Source of the DNA: Patescibacteria group bacterium
GTDB lineage: Bacteria; Patescibacteriota; UBA1384; 2-12-FULL-50-11
Assembly (NCBI GenBank): GCA_016861245.1
Contig: BOKZ01000001.1
Location: 280,962-344,961, forward strand
Direction of reading: 5' to 3'
DNA: 64,000 nucleotides
How positions within the stretch are numbered: position 1 is the stretch's first letter; each line of letters begins with the position of its first letter. Position numbers and translations under genes: made by a program. Shown one piece after another: positions 8,844-63,889 of the stretch. The notes beneath the pieces were generated by a model. That model worked only from the letters and a program-made list of their open reading frames with translations. It did no database searches and was not told where the DNA came from.

Positions 8844-9224
8844 TTAGTTTTTTTTGATGGTTTGCATCAGGCCGAATATATTGCCCTGCGGGTCTTCGCA
8901 GTAGCACCAGCGCATAATTTCTTCTGGCCCCATCGGCATATCAGCCAGCGGTTTTACAACCTTCCCGCCGTTAGCCTCAATATCTTTAATCGTTGCGGCG
9001 ATATCTTCGGTTTCAATAGTGTTGATAGTTTTTTCGCTCTCGTAACGCTTCATAATGCCGCCAAAGATTGCTCCCTCTGCTCTATCTTCTGTCTTGCCCA
9101 CCATCCAATAGTCGCTGCCTGGCCACAAGTTAATCTCCCAGCCTAGGGCTTTTTTATAAAACTCAGATAATTTCTCCGGATCTTCTGCGCCGATTTCGAA
9201 ATGGACGACTCTATTTTTACTCAT
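8844..9224 (-). CDS. VOC/glyoxalase-bleomycin resistance family protein.
   Basis: Size and betaalphabetabetabeta-type motif pattern (HFEI...FGL). Confidence 0.6.
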   Translation of the reverse strand: MSKNRVVHFEIGAEDPEKLSEFYKKALGWEINLWPGSDYWMVGKTEDRAEGAIFGGIMKRYESEKTINTIETEDIAATIKDIEANGGKVVKPLADMPMGPEEIMRWCYCEDPQGNIFGLMQTIKKN

Positions 9225-9353
9225 TCACGCTCCTTTTTTGTATATCTATTCGCATTATACTACGAAAATACAGGGTGTGATTATTGGATAAGGTACGGGA
9301 GTGTGTAAAAAAAGCACCAGACCGAGGCCTGGTGCATGATTGTTTGCGTGGAT

Positions 9354-9776
9354 TTACACTTCGTTACCACAGTGATGGCGGAAGGCGAGATTTATCCCCG
9401 ACAGAATCCGCCCAAACACACTAAGTGCTTCTTTTTCGTCCGTGATTGGCCAGACGCTAACAGCCGATGTCCACGTACCCGTCAATTCGCCCGGGCCAGT
9501 TTTTCTCTCGCTGTTGTCTTTCCGGATATCTGCGCCAACCAAGGTTCCGTCCAGGGGTTGATGGGTGCTCTTGCCGTTAGCAAGGAATACACGCCAAGTA
9601 CTGTCGTTGTCTTCAACCCAGAGCCACCCGTGCCGGATGGTTACTGGGATGATCCCCAGGAACTTTTTCCTATCAAGAACTGGCACTGACTCTCCGAATT
9701 GTTCGACTAGTTTTGCAATCTTTTCTGCGGTTGTTTTTTCCATGTTCGAACTGCGTGTGAATTCTACTATAGACAA
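9354..9776 (-). CDS. Hypothetical protein.
   Basis: ORF followed on the minus strand by a hairpin plus T-run terminator (9305-9340). The antisense ORF 9336-9689 is rejected. Confidence 0.45.
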   Translation of the reverse strand: MSIVEFTRSSNMEKTTAEKIAKLVEQFGESVPVLDRKKFLGIIPVTIRHGWLWVEDNDSTWRVFLANGKSTHQPLDGTLVGADIRKDNSERKTGPGELTGTWTSAVSVWPITDEKEALSVFGRILSGINLAFRHHCGNEV

Positions 9777-10169
9777 CCTTAAATGTCAATGGTTTGACCA
9801 AGAAAATGGAGATAAGTTGTTCCGTCAGAAACCTGCCCAGTACCCCACAAAAAGCACTAGTATCGACCAGACAAGAGAAATTACCGAAAGCACCCTGGAA
9901 AACTTAATTACCTGCAAGGCCTCTGCTGAAGTTGGCTCATTTTTGGCAGATCTCAGAAAAAAACGTTTATCTTCATAATTATTGGAACAACAGTAAGACA
10001 GAAAAGACCATATGTCGCGTAACTATTTAGCGCTTCGATAAAGGCGGGGAACCAAACTATACCAGCGATCGAGACTAAAAATGTGAGTTTCGCAAACAAG
10101 ATCATATGACGCTTGATTATCACTTTAGTAGCTTTTGGAAGTAATGAGATTATGTGGGGTCTCTTTCTG

Positions 10170-10187
10170 TGCGGAGAGGGAGGGATT
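10170..10187. repeat. 18-nt perfect direct repeat of the tRNA-Ser 3' end (att-like remnant).
   Basis: tgcggagagggagggatt is identical at 10170-10187 and at 10312-10329 inside the tRNA; the copies are 125 bp apart. Confidence 0.7.
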
Positions 10188-10313
10188 TGTCGCTGTGCTC
10201 CAACTTCTCAATCGCTTCGCTCATTCGCAGTCGAACCATAACGCAACGCGTTAGGTTCTCACCCTACCTATCGGATCGCAAACATCCCCACAGGAGTGGG
10301 TATATCTACAATG

Positions 10314-10400
10314 CGGAGAGGGAGGGATTCGAACCCTCGATACCCTTGCGGATATATCGCCTTTCCAAGGCGACGCACTAGGCCACTATGCGACCTCTCC
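10314..10400 (-). tRNA. tRNA-Ser(GGA), class II with a long variable arm.
   Basis: Manual fold: acceptor GGAGAGG/CCTCTCC, anticodon loop TTGGAAA, 18-nt variable arm, T-loop TTCGAAT, discriminator G. Confidence 0.8.
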
Positions 10401-10477
10401 TAACGAATTCCTGGTAATTTTACCTGAAAACTGTAAAAAAATATGCCCACTCATCGCACGAGTGGGCAGGTCGGCAA

Positions 10478-10765
10478 TTAGCCGACGGATTGCAAGAACT
10501 TCTTGGGGCAGGGCTGCCCATCCACCAGAGCGCGTTGGACGTAGCGCGGAATGTGTTGGTCGTGACCATCCTTCTTCAGCTCGGCGATTCCCTCCCGGGT
10601 CGCGTCGATCCGCCGAAGCGTCTTGTGCGGTTTGTCGAGTAGACGGCTCGACCTTTGCACGGCGCGGTAGACCTGGTTGATGATCCTGCTTCTCGGATTG
10701 GCTCCGATGTGTTGGGCAGCAGCTACCATGAGCTGCCGTTCGTTCTTACAGTTACTGAGTTGCAA
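10478..10765 (-). pseudogene. C-terminal fragment of a tyrosine recombinase/integrase, GC-rich.
   Basis: HKTLRR...GH...RYVQ resembles the HxxR...H...Y catalytic tail. There is no N-terminal or core-binding domain. GC is clearly above the surroundings. It lies beside tRNA-Ser. Confidence 0.4.
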
Positions 10766-45404: not shown

Positions 45405-45436
45405 CCAGCCCCTTCTCGGGGCTTTTTCTTTACCTG

Positions 45437-45496
45437 TAGCGGGGGCACGATTTCGTAAGAAACGTGACCACTTGTTCTTGTAGCGGGGGCACGATT
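45437..45496. repeat. Two tandem 17-nt copies (45437-45453, 45480-45496) of the 3' end of the tRNA-Met at 50111-50181. Candidate attR of an integrated element.
   Basis: GTAGCGGGGGCACGATT occurs at 45437, 45480 and 50110 (inside the tRNA T-arm/acceptor). Confidence 0.7.
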
Positions 45497-46065
45497 TTGA
45501 GCAATAGGCTCAAAACGTTGCACGATACTCGTGCTACGCACTCGTCTTCTCGCTCACTTGTTCGCTCGCAGTCGCACGTGTTTTTCTGACGAAAAACAAC
45601 GTTCAAATCTTGCCCGTATTAAGCAAAATACCTCCAGTTGGAGGTATTTTACATAGTAGTCGGGAGTGGAAACCTCTCGAACTTTGGAACTTACTGGTTT
45701 CTAGTCTTCCCTCTCTTATTACTTGCGTGGAAGAGCTACGGAATATCGATATTATTGCCGACGAAGAAGAAGTGGTCTTGGTCCCCCTTTCCGCCCTTTA
45801 GGCGTTCTGGTAGGGTTTGCTCATAAATGGCAAGTCAAGAACCAGCTAACAACATTCCCAACCTGTCACAAACGCTTGCGGATATAGACACAAGCGGTCC
45901 ACCACCACCTGCAAATCAGGCAACAACTGAAAATGGTGAGATCGTTAATCTTAACGACAACCCGAAAAGCGTTGTAAATAAGTAATACAAGAAATTGCTC
46001 GAACTGATGATGGGTCAAAATCTACCTCTGTTAAGCATGAGAGAAAAACTGTAATATAACCACAG

Positions 46066-46800
46066 ATGGCTTCCTCAGATACCGTGGATAAAGTTAGAAA
46101 CAGCATAGCTCTTGTAATAACGCTTAACGCCCAGAATAAAGTCACTGGCAAGGGAAGTGGTTTTGTCTTTTATCGCCCCGGGCTTCTTGTGACCTGCAAT
46201 CACGTTGTTGGGAGTGATGATAACGTGAAAATAAGACTAGTTGATTCATCCGCAGATTTCATTGAAGCAAAAGTCGCCATTAGGGATGAAGAACATGATT
46301 TAGCTCTCCTTAAGTACGATGCAACGAAATCACCCGACTCTCTTCCCTTAAAACCCTTAGAGCAGTCAAAGATAATAGAGGGCATACCGGTTCTGTTCGC
46401 AGGATATCCACTGGGTTTATTTACCCTAACGACTCACCAGGGTTTGCTATCGGGTATCACTAAGGATTCAACGGGCATTACTACATACTTGATTGATGGA
46501 ACAGTAAATTCTGGAAATAGCGGATGCCCCCTTATGGACCAAGACGGTAATGTTATAGGGGTGGTTAACGCAAAGAGACGAGAGCGGAACGACCTGCTTA
46601 ATCGGGTTGAGGAGTTGCAGCTTGGGGCACTTTCGCTACACGGGATTGATTTGGTTGAATTGTACCAAGCTTTGATTAGTAACGTACAATTAGGTATGGG
46701 CTACGCAGTACCGTGCTCGTATATCCCCTCTTATAAAGAGACTGAAGAGCCTGTAGTAGCTACTCAAGCTCAGGCGAAACAAAAGAGAGAAAAGAAGTAG
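46066..46800 (+). CDS. Trypsin-like (S1/HtrA-type) serine peptidase domain protein, with no signal peptide.
   Basis: Catalytic triad contexts TCNHVV (His), DLALLK (Asp), GNSGCPL (Ser). Confidence 0.7.
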   Translation: MASSDTVDKVRNSIALVITLNAQNKVTGKGSGFVFYRPGLLVTCNHVVGSDDNVKIRLVDSSADFIEAKVAIRDEEHDLALLKYDATKSPDSLPLKPLEQSKIIEGIPVLFAGYPLGLFTLTTHQGLLSGITKDSTGITTYLIDGTVNSGNSGCPLMDQDGNVIGVVNAKRRERNDLLNRVEELQLGALSLHGIDLVELYQALISNVQLGMGYAVPCSYIPSYKETEEPVVATQAQAKQKREKK

Positions 46801-47103
46801 ATGGAAAAATATATTTTTAGATCAAACGGCCAGTATATGGGCTTTATAGTAAATAATTATCTCTTTTCTCGTGATAACGCCTACCTGGGTTGGGTTGAAG
46901 CAGATAACGTTTGGGATGCAGGAGGTAACTTCAGGGGAAAGCTAATAGAAATCACTGGTCATGCCTACATACTGAGAAGTATGTTTACTGTCAGTCCTAT
47001 CCCAAAGCCTCCGAAACCATTCCCTCGTCCCGTCCAATTGCCGACTCCACAACCTAATATCTTGCCAATAATACCGCCTATCGGTTATCAAGACGGATTC
47101 TAG
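46801..47103 (+). CDS. Hypothetical protein, translationally coupled to the protease (TAGATG overlap).
   Basis: ORF only; proline-rich C-terminus. Confidence 0.4.
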   Translation: MEKYIFRSNGQYMGFIVNNYLFSRDNAYLGWVEADNVWDAGGNFRGKLIEITGHAYILRSMFTVSPIPKPPKPFPRPVQLPTPQPNILPIIPPIGYQDGF

Positions 47104-47369
47104 TTTATAGGGCTATAGTTAGGCTTATTATTTTCGGCACTCGGTTGCCGATATTCGTCATATCTGGTAAATTTTATAGTAGTAACTTAGACAATTAGTT
47201 GGACTTAACCCGTGGGTAATACCTACGGTATGGCCATAAAAATCTCTCACAAGTAGTAAGCTCGTCGTTCAGAGCACTTGTGAGAGTCACGTCTCGAAAG
47301 GGGCGTGGGTGCTTCGGCTATCGCAGGCGGCGAGCTTTTTGCTACCCGCCAGCACCAACAAGGAGGTAA

Positions 47370-47936
47370 ATGGAAGTGGCGGAAAAGAAAATTAAGGCTG
47401 ACCAACACAGCCAGTATTGGACCTTTACGATCTTAGCGTTATTGATTCCCGTTGTCGGAATCGTTATGGGGATTATCTACTTGTCCAAACCGGACAAGCT
47501 CGATAAAAAAGTCGGCGAACACAGCATAGCGGTTAGTATCTTTGGACTGATTGCCTACGGGATATTAATCGGCGTATTGAATGCTAATGGAACCCCTATA
47601 GTGGGCGTCCCGGCCGTTACGATACCCTCAGTAACAACCCCTATTACAACTCCGGCAGTATCAGCAGCCAGTAAAATAACTTTGTCGAACAACTCCGTTA
47701 AAGAGAGTTACGGTCTTTGGCAGATAGTTGGCGAAGCAAAGAATACTGACAGTGCTGCCCATACTTTTATCATTTCTGCCACTTTCTACGGAACTGATGG
47801 CAAGATAGTTGGGACAGCTACTGGTAATGTTAATGACTTGGCGGCTGGGGACACTAAAACCTACACTTTATTGTCTTCTGACAACCTTACTGGCTACAAA
47901 GACTATAAAGTGCAAATCTCGACTATGATTCAGTAG
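47370..47936 (+). CDS. Membrane-anchored beta-sandwich (DUF4352-like) hypothetical protein.
   Basis: N-terminal TM; Thr/Pro linker; C-terminal FxxTxxG beta-domain. Confidence 0.4.
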   Translation: MEVAEKKIKADQHSQYWTFTILALLIPVVGIVMGIIYLSKPDKLDKKVGEHSIAVSIFGLIAYGILIGVLNANGTPIVGVPAVTIPSVTTPITTPAVSAASKITLSNNSVKESYGLWQIVGEAKNTDSAAHTFIISATFYGTDGKIVGTATGNVNDLAAGDTKTYTLLSSDNLTGYKDYKVQISTMIQ

Positions 47937-47971
47937 TAAATACACAAGATTTTAGAAGGACTTGCCTTAGT

Positions 47972-48418
47972 CTATTTTGCATCGAGGGAGTCTTGGTCAA
48001 TTCCTAGACTATTTTTTAGCTCCTCAATCATCCGCTGACCATGTTGTTGTTGCTCGGGGCTTGGATCGGTTGACCTAGGGAACTTGTTCTTTAATTTGAG
48101 TGCCAACGTTATTGCTTGAAGGCGGATAGAGTGGTCCGTAATCCAGTACCTAGACCCGTTCGCAATGAATAGCTTTTTAGCTTCCGTTGCCTCTTTAAGC
48201 CCCTTAACCAACTCGATGTCACTTAACCCAGACTCATCAAGTAATTCAGTTAGGTTAAGTTTGTTTAAGTTTTTTGACCCAACCACGGCAGCCGAGGCTC
48301 TATCTACGCAGTCGTAAGCAGCTACGGCGGCTTCAGTCGCGTTGCCGGTAGCTAAATAGAATTTCGCCCAAGTTTTTTGTTTGAGGGTCTTAGGTGGGTG
48401 AGCTGCTACGGAATTCAT
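47972..48418 (-). CDS. Phage terminase small subunit-like protein (Terminase_2/P27 family).
   Basis: LKQKTWAKFYLATGNATEAAVAAY matches the family N-terminal signature (L..KQ..F..EY...GNAT.AA..AGY). Confidence 0.6.
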   Translation of the reverse strand: MNSVAAHPPKTLKQKTWAKFYLATGNATEAAVAAYDCVDRASAAVVGSKNLNKLNLTELLDESGLSDIELVKGLKEATEAKKLFIANGSRYWITDHSIRLQAITLALKLKNKFPRSTDPSPEQQQHGQRMIEELKNSLGIDQDSLDAK

Positions 48419-48440
48419 TATTTGTACTAAAGCAGGTAAG

Positions 48441-50141
48441 TTGTTGGAGGAAAAGAAGATGGATACTAACTGGACTCTTGAAACTTTACGAAACTACTTT
48501 GTAGAGTCATTTGCGAGTAAGAATGAGGTCTCAAAAGAAGACTATAAATATGTAATTTATGCTCGCAAGTCAACCGACGACAAAGACAAGCAGTCCTGCT
48601 CCTTATCCGATCAGGTCAAGGAATGTAAGAAGTATGCGGCTAGTGTGGGACTAGTGGTTGTAGGTAAGCCTATAGAGGAAAAGAAATCCGCAAAAAAATC
48701 GGGACAAAGACCAAAGTTTGATGAAATATTAAACATGATCTCTACTGGTAAGATTCACGGCATTATTTCCTGGCACCCAGATCGACTTAGCAGAAATATG
48801 AAAGAAGCCGGAATAATTATTGAAATGCTGGATGAGGGGAAAATAAAAGATCTTCGTTTTGTAACTCAACAGTTTGATAACTCCGCAAGTGGAAAAATGA
48901 TGCTTGCCATCTCCTTCGCAATTAGTAAGCAATATTCAGATAACATGAGTGTAAATATTACTCGTGGGTCTAAGAACCGACTCTATGAAGGTCATGGGAT
49001 GTACCCAGTCCATGGCTACTATAAGGATGGAGATAACTTTTTAAGGCCCGATGGAGCAAATCACGATCTGTTAAGAGAAGCGTTCCAAATGAGATTAGGC
49101 GGTGAAACCCACGCAGCTATTTGCGAGTTCTTGAATACTTCCGGATATCAAAAAGCCAGAGGGATGGGTGTGGTCAAGCACATAACATTCAAATGGACAC
49201 CGGGTAAACTTTCAGAGCAGTTCTCTAATCCCATCTTTGCGGGGCTGCAACTACATGGCAAGGATGTAGTTAATCTTGTTGACCTTTACAACTTTGAACC
49301 CCTAATTACACCGGAGCAGTATGTAATGATTAGTTCGCTAGGAAAGAATCAAGGCTTTCTTAAGAAACACCGGAGCAAGAAAAAAAAGATAGCCCAATTA
49401 CTAAATGGGAAAATTCTTTGCGGATATTGTAAACGGCCGATGCATGCCAGCATGACCACAAAAAAGCCTAAAAATGGCCAAACAGAAAAGTCTCTTTATT
49501 TGTTTTACCGCTGCCCTTACGGCGATTGTCCTTTCTTTGCTGAATGGGAAAAGTTTAAGGCTAAGAAAAGACACCACCTGCATGTCAAGGCCAGAGTGAT
49601 AGTTAACTTTGCCCAAGAACAGCTGACACATTTGAAAGTAAACTCCGAAGAAACCTTCAACAGCCAAATTGCTGGATTGAAAGCCGAAGCCGCAAGCAAT
49701 ATCCAAAAACTCCAAGTCAAGAAGACAAACTTAGAGCGTCAACGTGTCAGCAAGAAGGATCATATTCTTTCGTTGCAAGAAGCGGTAAAGAATATTGATA
49801 CTAAGGTTGTCTCAGAATTCCAATCAGATTTAGATAATGAGATAAAGTCACTTACTCAAATTAAATTCGCAATCGCTGAAGTTGAGGAAGCAATTGAGAT
49901 AAGTCAGACGGCAGTACCTACATACAAGGATTTCCTCGAACTTATAGCTTCCCTACCAGTTAAATTGCAGTATGCAAAAATGCTATTAGCTAAAGATAGA
50001 ATACTAAGTTCTATATTCTCGAACTTTTATGTAACAGATAAGGGCGTGCAAGGGTTTACGCTCGCTGAACCATATGCAAGCCTACTTGTGCCTCAAAATG
50101 TTCGTTCTCGTAGCGGGGGCACGATTCGAACGTGCGCCTAG
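48441..50141 (+). CDS. Large serine recombinase (integrase).
   Basis: Resolvase catalytic domain YARKSTDDKDKQSCSLSDQ with DRLSRN. Recombinase domain, CGYCKRP/RCPYGDCP zinc ribbon and a coiled coil. Ends inside the tRNA-Met. Confidence 0.85.
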   Translation: MLEEKKMDTNWTLETLRNYFVESFASKNEVSKEDYKYVIYARKSTDDKDKQSCSLSDQVKECKKYAASVGLVVVGKPIEEKKSAKKSGQRPKFDEILNMISTGKIHGIISWHPDRLSRNMKEAGIIIEMLDEGKIKDLRFVTQQFDNSASGKMMLAISFAISKQYSDNMSVNITRGSKNRLYEGHGMYPVHGYYKDGDNFLRPDGANHDLLREAFQMRLGGETHAAICEFLNTSGYQKARGMGVVKHITFKWTPGKLSEQFSNPIFAGLQLHGKDVVNLVDLYNFEPLITPEQYVMISSLGKNQGFLKKHRSKKKKIAQLLNGKILCGYCKRPMHASMTTKKPKNGQTEKSLYLFYRCPYGDCPFFAEWEKFKAKKRHHLHVKARVIVNFAQEQLTHLKVNSEETFNSQIAGLKAEAASNIQKLQVKKTNLERQRVSKKDHILSLQEAVKNIDTKVVSEFQSDLDNEIKSLTQIKFAIAEVEEAIEISQTAVPTYKDFLELIASLPVKLQYAKMLLAKDRILSSIFSNFYVTDKGVQGFTLAEPYASLLVPQNVRSRSGGTIRTCA

Positions 50142-50181
50142 TGGTTATGAGCCACTCGAGGTACCATTCCTCCACCCCGCT
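50111..50181 (-). tRNA. tRNA-Met (anticodon CAU), the integration target.
   Basis: Similar to bacterial tRNA-fMet (AGCGGGGTGGAG...CTCATAA...TTCGAAT...CCCCGCTA), but with A1-U72 and only two GC pairs at the base of the anticodon stem, so initiator identity is uncertain. Confidence 0.7.
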
Positions 50182-63757: not shown

Positions 63758-63775
63758 TGAGCGGGAGACGGGAAT
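63755..63775. repeat. 21-nt direct repeat of the tRNA-Gly 3' end (second copy at 63814-63834).
   Basis: cattgagcgggagacgggaat occurs twice, 59 bp apart. Confidence 0.7.
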
Positions 63776-63818
63776 TCGAGCTAGCGCTCGGTTCCCTCTT
63801 TTGTAGTAATAATCATTG

Positions 63819-63889
63819 AGCGGGAGACGGGAATCGAACCCGCGTCACCTGCTTGGAAGGCAGGAGTTCTACCATTGAACCACTCCCGC
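63819..63889 (-). tRNA. tRNA-Gly(UCC).
   Basis: Acceptor GCGGGAG/CTCCCGC, anticodon loop CTTCCAA, T-loop TTCGATT. Confidence 0.8.

What the first reader, a model, noticed from the sequence alone, without database searches (positions are those of the whole stretch)
10170..10765. Decayed integration hotspot at tRNA-Ser: 18-nt 3'-end direct repeat plus GC-rich tyrosine-integrase C-terminal fragment
tRNA-Ser(GGA) has an exact 18-nt copy of its 3' end 125 bp downstream. This has the attL/attR signature with almost all cargo deleted. On the other side lies a 95-aa ORF with the HxxR...H...Y tail of tyrosine recombinases, in DNA of clearly higher GC. Together these mark past, and perhaps repeated, site-specific integration at this tRNA.
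Basis: partly seen in the sequence, partly recalled or inferred. Interest (0 to 1): 0.55.

Follow-up and report, generated by a model that had tools for sequence, protein, structure and literature searches.

The report
Integration scar behind a serine tRNA
The 18-base repeat behind this tRNA gene is real and is most likely the leftover end of a mobile element that once inserted there, but the neighbouring small gene is an ordinary conserved gene and not a broken integrase.

Summary
The repeat is confirmed. TGCGGAGAGGGAGGGATT lies at 10170-10187 and 10312-10329. It is the 3' end of tRNA-Ser(GGA), from T-loop A58 to two bases past the discriminator. Only two copies exist in 64 kb, against 0.06 expected.

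The integrase claim is refuted. The 95-aa ORF has no PF00589 hit. Its homologues are all 84-112 aa. Synonymous changes outnumber non-synonymous ones. It keeps its place next to tRNA-Ser(GGA) in distant relatives and models as a confident five-helix bundle.

The attL/attR reading is supported, but with a different enzyme class. In the same window an intact large serine recombinase gene (48441-50141) ends over the 3' end of tRNA-fMet. That tRNA's 3' end, also from A58, recurs exactly 4.6 kb downstream. A relative (L009) has a decayed recombinase of this family abutting an identical tRNA-Ser(GGA) 3' end. Two close relatives (L001, L014) lack the repeat and about 1.09 kb.

The 124-nt spacer resembles the distal end of the fMet element, but only suggestively (p about 0.003-0.01). 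No recombinase remains at the Ser locus.

This is an ordinary kind of feature in an understudied phylum (Patescibacteria). The recurrence of very short remnants is unexplained.

The parts
10313..10400 (-). tRNA-Ser(GGA). No CCA is encoded; the gene ends ...CTCTCCG-CA.
   Evidence: ARAGORN. Rfam RF00005, 57.7 bits.
10312..10329 (-). Proximal repeat copy (attL-like). It covers T-loop A58-A59-T60, the T-stem 3' strand, the acceptor 3' strand, the discriminator and CA.
10188..10311 (-). 124-nt spacer, the presumed remnant of the distal (P-arm) end of an integrative element. It holds a hairpin right after the tRNA (ACCCAC-TCCT-GTGGGG), a second hairpin (GAACC..GGTTC) and the motif CGACTGCGA.
   Evidence: The fold is slightly more stable than shuffles (z = -2.2). 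A local alignment to window 45546-45654(-) scores 41, against a shuffle maximum of 40 (p about 0.003). That score ranks only third among roughly 1260 chunks of the window. CGACTGCGA occurs only at these two places in the window.
10170..10187 (-). Distal repeat copy (attR-like), an exact 18/18 match.
   Evidence: The copy is identical in ten strains.
9225..10169 (-). Strain-variable segment between the distal copy and the glyoxalase start codon. It holds a 56-aa hydrophobic ORF (9953-10123) and a 129/140-aa orphan ORF (9354-9776) with its own promoter-like site and hairpin. It is absent from L001 and L014.
   Evidence: No third repeat copy is present.
10478..10765 (-). 95-aa ORF. It is NOT part of the scar. 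It is a conserved small helical protein gene with a GGAGGG ribosome-binding site, followed by a terminator at 10444-10468.
48441..50141 (+). Reference case in the same window: an intact large serine recombinase gene whose 3' end overlaps the 3' end of tRNA-fMet (50110-50181, - strand).
   Evidence: Pfam PF00239 3e-23, PF07508 5e-07; PF13408 is weak (E 0.004, 17.9 bits, below the 25.3-bit curated cut-off). ARAGORN.
45436..45495 (-). Distal end of the fMet element: two exact copies of the tRNA-fMet 3' end (ATCGTGCCCCCGCTAC) at 45480-45495 and 45436-45451, 28 nt apart. The proximal copy is at 50110-50125.
63759..63775 (-). Exact 17-nt copy of the 3' end of tRNA-Gly(TCC) (63818-63889), 59 nt downstream of that tRNA. 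This is the same kind of short remnant.

Best explanation
The 18-nt repeat pair is the scar of a site-specific integration into the 3' end of tRNA-Ser(GGA).

The inferred sequence of events is as follows.
1. An integrative element carried a copy of the tRNA's last about 18 nt in its attachment site.
2. It recombined within the T-loop, at or just before A58.
3. Its own copy now completes the tRNA (10312-10329).
4. The displaced chromosomal 3' end became the distal copy (10170-10187).

The enzyme was most probably a large serine recombinase of the family that is intact elsewhere in this window. It was not a tyrosine recombinase.

Nearly the whole element has since been lost. Only about 124 nt remain, and these look like the distal, attachment-site-proximal arm.

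The tRNA, the scar and the adjoining 0.9 kb behave as one block recently shared between strains by homologous recombination.

The GC-rich 95-aa ORF upstream is an unrelated, vertically inherited small gene.

Shown: the repeat, its boundary, the empty relatives, the in-window precedent, and the identity of the ORF. Inferred: that integration made this particular repeat, the enzyme class, and the deletion of the interior.
For: - The repeat is exact and non-random.
- Its left boundary is T-loop A58. The same boundary is seen for the repeats that bracket a 4.7-kb element carrying an intact large serine recombinase at tRNA-fMet in this window, and for a tRNA-Gly copy.
- Recombinases of this family end over the 3' end of a tRNA in L072 (fMet), L074 and L075 (Pro), and L073 (Pro, two elements in tandem). 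In L009 a decayed one abuts tRNA-Ser(GGA), whose 3' end is identical to the window's.
- L001 and L014 are close relatives (DnaG 99% identical for L014). They have tRNA-Ser followed after 76 bp by the glyoxalase gene. They lack the second copy and the 1.09 kb.
- Across the family, the DNA just 3' of this tRNA is the variable point of an otherwise syntenic locus.
- The spacer aligns over about 108 nt with the distal end of the fMet element. Both have a hairpin at the start with compensatory changes, a second hairpin at the same place, and a shared 9-mer.
- The block 10520-9183 has 5 differences in 1337 nt against strains that differ by 3.5% in the flanks.
Against: - No recombinase gene or fragment lies at the Ser locus itself.
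- The spacer-to-fMet-element similarity is weak. It ranks third of about 1260 window chunks, and two unrelated chunks score higher. The syntenic element in L072 gives it no support.
- The empty sites are not clean. The DNA after the distal copy does not match the 76-bp flank of L001/L014. Either further rearrangement occurred or the block came from another lineage.
- Both copies read CCGCA where L001 has CCGCCA. The distal copy therefore does not look like the L001-type native end.
- Random deletion does not obviously explain why the remnant starts within a base or two of the tRNA end.
- It also does not explain why similar short pieces recur (28, 42, 53, 68, 105, 124 and 151 nt).
Confidence: 0.6

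Rival explanations
1. The spacer plus distal copy is a discrete, non-autonomous miniature element. It would be essentially a solo attachment-site arm, inserted as such by a serine recombinase supplied in trans. On this reading it is not the product of random deletion of a kb-sized element.
For: - Short pieces that start right at the tRNA end and finish with that tRNA's own 3' end recur. Examples are window Ser (124 nt), window Gly (42 nt), between the two distal fMet copies (28 nt), L004, L003 (two tandem units), L063 (151 nt, with a sister contig L059 lacking it) and L051/L065/L067 (about 105 nt).
- The identity segment lies wholly on one side of the crossover. attL therefore stays attB-like and attR attP-like (inference).
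- Tandem elements exist in L073.
Against: - No second copy of the 124-nt spacer was found anywhere in the window, the loci or viral contigs.
- The sizes vary 5-fold.
- A DNA circle of about 140 bp is a poor recombination substrate (general knowledge).
- L063 and L059 share only 11 nt of flank beyond the insertion.
Confidence: 0.2
2. The spacer and distal copy form a functional structured RNA co-transcribed with the tRNA. The 3' strand would mimic the tRNA acceptor/T-stem. It could serve, for example, as a processing signal or a decoy.
For: - In other Patescibacteria contigs, homologous pieces of about 105 nt sit behind four different tRNA-Ser isoacceptors. Each ends in its own tRNA's 3' end.
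- These pieces have covarying hairpins and a purine strand complementary to the copy (p 0.002-0.03).
- They are not in Rfam.
- The window spacer folds slightly better than shuffles (z = -2.2).
Against: - For the window spacer, complementarity to the copy is no better than for shuffled sequence (p about 0.6).
- The covariance model of that family gives only 11.9 bits (E = 2.9) in the search of all loci. The hairpin just before the copy is missing.
- There is no Rfam match at E up to 1.
- There is no sequence variation among strains with which to test covariation.
Confidence: 0.1
3. One reading: a tyrosine-integrase element integrated here, and the 95-aa ORF is its decayed C-terminal catalytic fragment.
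For: Only a superficial H..R / H / Y spacing and the higher GC of the ORF.
Against: - No PF00589 hit at E up to 10, and no PHROG or NCBIfam hit.
- All four close homologues among 1.84 billion representatives are 84-112 aa.
- The claimed catalytic His/Arg residues are not conserved.
- Synonymous changes outnumber non-synonymous ones and indels are in frame.
- The same gene sits before tRNA-Ser(GGA) in L070/L071 (48% identity) and L013.
- The AlphaFold model has pLDDT 91.8 and is a five-helix bundle. No recombinase appeared among the PDB matches listed, all of which had E of 2 or more.
- The ORF lies 5' of the tRNA, outside the repeat-bounded interval.
Confidence: 0.02
4. The repeat arose by local duplication or slippage, or by chance, without any mobile element.
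For: L003 shows an exact tandem duplication of a 97-nt unit containing the tRNA 3' end.
Against: - Chance is excluded.
- The sequences following the two copies are unrelated, so this is not a tandem duplication.
- The boundary coincides with that of a bona fide recombinase-bearing element.
Confidence: 0.05

Closest known systems
Integrative elements and genomic islands that insert into tRNA gene 3' ends and leave partial-tRNA direct repeats. Examples are P4-like and SSV-type integrations, Prochlorococcus islands and tycheposons. These examples are cited from my own knowledge and were not checked in papers here.
   Same: - The direct repeat equals the tRNA 3' end, starts in the T-loop and restores the tRNA.
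- The locus is a strain-variable hotspot.
- Remnants and tandem copies accumulate.
   Different: - The associated recombinases here are large serine recombinases, not tyrosine integrases.
- The remnant is only 124 nt.
- The host is a reduced-genome Patescibacterium.
Large serine recombinases (Pfam Resolvase + Recombinase + Zn_ribbon_recom), as in phiC31, Bxb1 and A118-type phage integrases.
   Same: The domain architecture of the window's 566-aa protein (48441-50141) and of its more than 1000 homologues.
   Different: - In this family the gene's 3' end overlaps a tRNA 3' end.
- The att identity segment is 16-18 nt, not just the central dinucleotide.
- Enzymatic activity was not tested.
Cis-mobilisable or degenerate elements (CIME-like): att-flanked remnants lacking an integrase. 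Cited from my own knowledge.
   Same: An att-flanked piece with no recombinase of its own.
   Different: It is orders of magnitude shorter and carries no genes. Mobility is not shown.

Membership tests
Tyrosine recombinase catalytic domain (PF00589), tested for the 95-aa ORF | Significant match to the Phage_integrase profile | tested here: not met
   No hit at E up to 10 in Pfam. Nothing in PHROGs or NCBIfam. A profile of the family finds no PDB chain at E up to 10.
Tyrosine recombinase catalytic domain (PF00589), tested for the 95-aa ORF | Conserved R-H-R-(H/W)-Y catalytic residues | tested here: not met
   H19, R25/R27, H68 and H71 vary among the six homologues. Only Y75 is invariant.
Tyrosine recombinase catalytic domain (PF00589), tested for the 95-aa ORF | Being a fragment of a longer (300-400 aa) protein with the mixed alpha/beta catalytic fold | tested here: not met
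   The homologues are 84-112 aa. The AlphaFold model has pLDDT 91.8 and consists of five helices. No recombinase appeared among the Foldseek PDB matches listed, all of which had E of 2 or more.
attL/attR scar of integration into a tRNA 3' end | Direct repeat identical to the tRNA 3' end, on the 3' side of the tRNA, more than chance | tested here: met
   18/18 match; 2 copies against 0.06 expected.
attL/attR scar of integration into a tRNA 3' end | Repeat boundary at a recombinase crossover position used by a bona fide element | tested here: met
   The Ser, fMet and Gly repeats all begin at T-loop A58. The fMet pair brackets an element with an intact recombinase.
attL/attR scar of integration into a tRNA 3' end | Empty site in close relatives, with flanks that join cleanly | tested here: inconclusive
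   L001 and L014 lack the second copy and the 1.09 kb. However, the DNA after the distal copy is not their 76-bp flank.
attL/attR scar of integration into a tRNA 3' end | Recombinase gene or recognisable element DNA between the repeats | tested here: inconclusive
   There is no recombinase at the locus. The spacer's similarity to the fMet element's distal end has p about 0.003 against shuffles, but ranks only third window-wide. The relative L009 has a decayed serine recombinase at this same tRNA.
attL/attR scar of integration into a tRNA 3' end | Recombination activity at this site | not testable with these tools
   Needs an in vitro or in vivo attB x attP assay.
Structured tRNA-Ser-linked element of L051/L065/L067 (model R1) | Significant covariance-model match, plus a 5' strand complementary to the 3' copy | tested here: not met
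   11.9 bits, E = 2.9 over all loci. Duplex energy is no better than shuffles, p about 0.6.
Large serine recombinase, tested for window 48441-50141 | Resolvase + Recombinase + zinc-ribbon domains | tested here: met
   PF00239 3e-23 and PF07508 5e-07 pass their cut-offs. PF13408 is only weak (E 0.004, 17.9 bits, below the 25.3-bit curated cut-off).

The most novel reading that the evidence does not exclude
The short pieces that begin at a tRNA's end and finish with a copy of that tRNA's own 3' end may be a discrete class, not random debris. Examples in this window are the 124 nt behind tRNA-Ser, the 42 nt behind tRNA-Gly and the 28 nt at the fMet element. About 105-nt covarying homologues sit behind four tRNA-Ser isoacceptors in other Patescibacteria. 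On this reading they are either miniature elements moved by tRNA-targeting serine recombinases, or tRNA-top-half-mimicking RNAs made from tRNA trailers.
Probability: 0.2. Interest if true: 0.65.

Novelty: new member of a known kind. Interest (0 to 1): 0.35.

Why it matters
Mobile elements of Patescibacteria (CPR) are poorly described. This locus and the intact element 35 kb away show three things:
- tRNA 3' ends are used as attachment sites in these tiny genomes.
- The enzyme is a widespread family of large serine recombinases whose own gene ends over the tRNA.
- Integration leaves very short scars.

The result also corrects an annotation trap. A GC-rich small ORF next to a tRNA is not evidence of an integrase.

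The practical value is modest. It gives candidate attB/attP pairs for a recombinase family, and a caution for island-finding tools that look for tyrosine integrases only.

Tried and rejected
1. Searched viral contigs for the two window junction 24/25-mers. No hits.
2. Looked for a third, degenerate repeat copy at the far end of the 1.09-kb extra DNA. None found; shuffles give 0.3.
3. Looked for a relic of the L001/L014 76-bp flank inside the extra DNA. Not significant (p 0.06 and 0.2).
4. Tested a 'minihelix' reading of the window spacer, with a purine strand pairing with the copy. It is no better than shuffles (p about 0.6) and was rejected for the window. It does hold for L051, L065 and L067.
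5. Tested membership of the window spacer in the L051/L065/L067 family with covariance model R1. E = 2.9. Rejected.
6. Looked for a degenerate att copy just before the module in the fMet element. The score is at chance level.
7. Compared the spacer with the proximal end of the fMet element, with the L009 element and with the L072 distal region. No similarity.
8. Scanned viral contigs for relatives of the recombinase. Nothing found.
9. Two literature searches found no paper on this arrangement. One search failed on syntax.
10. The functions of the 56-aa and 129-aa ORFs remain unknown. There are no family hits, and only same-species copies exist.

Full report
**Observation.** The window carries tRNA-Ser(GGA) on the minus strand at 10313-10400 (Rfam tRNA 57.7 bits). 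The 18-mer TGCGGAGAGGGAGGGATT occurs exactly twice, at 10312-10329 and 10170-10187. No further copy with up to three mismatches exists in 64 kb, against 0.06 expected. Read in the tRNA sense it is AATCCCTCCCTCTCCGCA. That covers T-loop A58 onward, the T-stem 3' strand, the acceptor 3' strand, the discriminator and two more bases. Between the copies lie 124 nt. The sequences that follow the two copies are unrelated, so this is not a tandem duplication.

**The 95-aa ORF is not an integrase fragment.**
- It has no match to PF00589 or to anything else in Pfam at E up to 10, and none in PHROGs or NCBIfam.
- It has a GGAGGG ribosome-binding site 9 nt before its start codon (read). A strong terminator lies at 10444-10468.
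- A word-indexed search of 5.8 billion proteins found one homologue. An exhaustive HMMER search of 1.84 billion representatives found four small ones of 84-112 aa, and no recombinase.
- The histidines and arginines that suggested an integrase tail vary among homologues.
- Between strains, synonymous codon changes outnumber non-synonymous ones, most changes fall at third codon positions, and the one length difference is in frame.
- The gene keeps its place, followed by a terminator and then tRNA-Ser(GGA), in L070/L071 (48% identity). It also keeps that place in L013.
- A profile of the family finds no PDB chain.
- AlphaFold gives a confident five-helix bundle (pLDDT 91.8). No recombinase appeared among the Foldseek PDB matches listed, and all of those had E of 2 or more.
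- Its higher GC is real, but it belongs to a vertically inherited gene.

**Relatives.** The arrangement dnaG, then divergently tRNA-Ser(GGA), is conserved in fourteen Patescibacteria MAGs labelled Berkelbacteria or Saccharimonadales. What follows the tRNA's 3' end varies from genome to genome.
- L001 and L014 are close relatives. L014 has DnaG 99% identical. In both, the tRNA is followed after 76 bp by the glyoxalase gene that sits at 8844-9224 in the window.
- The window has about 1.09 kb instead. This comprises the 124-nt spacer, the second copy, and about 0.95 kb with two orphan ORFs.
- The site is therefore occupied here and empty there, but not cleanly. The DNA after the distal copy is not the relatives' flank.
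- Ten strains that differ from the window by 3.5% share the layout. Within 10520-9183 they differ at only 5 of 1337 positions. This block has therefore been exchanged recently.
- L014 also carries a different tRNA-Ser(GGA) allele between homologous flanks.

**The decisive context is in the window itself.**
- A 566-aa large serine recombinase gene at 48441-50141 ends over the 3' end of tRNA-fMet at 50110-50181.
- That tRNA's last 16-17 nt, again starting at A58, recur exactly at 45480-45495 and 45436-45451. These copies bracket a 4.7-kb element that encodes a small-terminase-like protein, a trypsin-like protease and others.
- A third tRNA, Gly(TCC) at 63818-63889, has an exact 17-nt copy of its 3' end 59 nt downstream.
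- Recombinases of this family have more than 1000 homologues, mostly CPR. They end over tRNA 3' ends in L072 (fMet, syntenic), L074 and L075 (Pro) and L073 (Pro, two elements in tandem).
- In L009 a decayed recombinase (PF07508 and PF13408; 26% identity to the window's, E 1e-13) abuts tRNA-Ser(GGA). That tRNA's 3' end is identical to the window's.

**Is the spacer element DNA?** The 124 nt align over about 108 nt with the distal end of the fMet element.
- Both start with a hairpin that shows compensatory changes. Both have a second hairpin at the same relative place. They share CGACTGCGA, which occurs nowhere else in the window.
- The score exceeds all 300 shuffles. It is nevertheless only the third best among about 1260 chunks of the window. 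L072 gives no support.
- I treat this as suggestive, with p about 0.01 after allowing for the three targets tried.

**A rival that I followed and rejected for this locus.** A scan of metagenome contigs with the tRNA's 3' 43-mer turned up homologous pieces of about 105 nt behind four different tRNA-Ser isoacceptors (L051, L056/L067, L065). L063 is more distant.
- Each piece ends in its own tRNA's 3' end. They have covarying hairpins and a purine strand complementary to the copy. They are not in Rfam.
- The window spacer does not match their covariance model (E = 2.9). It lacks the hairpin next to the copy. Its complementarity to the copy is no better than shuffled sequence.

**Verdict.** The repeat is best read as the scar of integration into tRNA-Ser(GGA), most probably by a serine-recombinase element, with the interior lost (confidence 0.6). 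A discrete mini-element (0.2) and a functional RNA (0.1) remain possible. This is a known kind of feature in a little-studied phylum. The narrow, recurrent size of such remnants is the one point that remains unexplained.

Noticed in passing
window 45436-50181: An apparently intact integrative element of about 4.7 kb sits at tRNA-fMet. Its large serine recombinase gene (48441-50141) ends over the tRNA 3' end. It also encodes a Terminase_2-like protein (47972-48418), a trypsin-like protease (46066-46800) and a Bflower protein (46801-47103). Exact 16-nt att repeats lie at 50110-50125, 45480-45495 and 45436-45451. The same element is present in several public assemblies (L076-L079).
   Followed up: partly
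window 63759-63889: tRNA-Gly(TCC) has an exact 17-nt copy of its 3' end (ATTCCCGTCTCCCGCTC) 59 nt downstream. The 42-nt spacer contains a small hairpin (CGAGC-GCTA-GCTCG).
   Followed up: partly
L051 4289-4410; L067 10066-10188 and 11253-11379; L056 (same as L067); L065 108-232; L063 2064-2231: A family of roughly 105-150-nt pieces lies directly behind tRNA-Ser(TGA), (GCT), (CGA) and (GGA). Each ends in a copy of its own tRNA's 3' end. They have covarying hairpins and a four-way-junction-like consensus (model R1, 72-97 bits). There is no Rfam family for them, and no recombinase lies nearby in the DNA held.
   Followed up: partly
L003 3500-3960: A relative has three copies of the tRNA-Ser 3' 29 nt at 97-nt spacing downstream of the tRNA, with two identical 68-nt spacers. 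It also has two partial copies of the tRNA 5' 23 nt upstream. The order is nested: 5',5',tRNA,3',3'. L004 has a 3' copy 67 nt downstream, with a complementary strand in the spacer.
   Followed up: no
window 10300-10415 compared with L014 3395-3510: Two genomes with 99% identical DnaG carry different tRNA-Ser(GGA) alleles between homologous flanks (about 17 differences, mostly compensatory). L001 has the window's allele but L014's downstream flank, and it encodes CCA, which the window's gene lacks.
   Followed up: partly
window 9183-10520: This block is about ten times less diverged than its flanks between the window and strains L040-L049 (0.4% against 3.5%). Four of the five differences cluster at 9654-9690.
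   Followed up: no
L009 3270-4001; L011 871-1424: Other insertions occur between tRNA-Ser(GGA) and dnaG in relatives. L009 has a LAGLIDADG-like ORF. L011 has a pair of small ORFs that look like a MazE/MazF-type toxin-antitoxin pair; this was judged by eye from the translations and not tested against any family library.
   Followed up: no
L073 6800-14500: Two serine-recombinase elements with parallel gene sets sit in tandem next to tRNA-Pro(TGG). The internal junction keeps only a degenerate copy of the tRNA end.
   Followed up: partly
window 10478-10765 and P0003-P0005: A small family of confidently folded five-helix proteins of about 100 aa has no known relatives or structural match. In this lineage the gene always lies next to tRNA-Ser(GGA) and dnaG.
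   Followed up: partly
L072 11497-13932: The FtsH gene next to the syntenic fMet element in a Berkelbacteria MAG carries an intein with a LAGLIDADG domain, according to precomputed Pfam hits.
   Followed up: no
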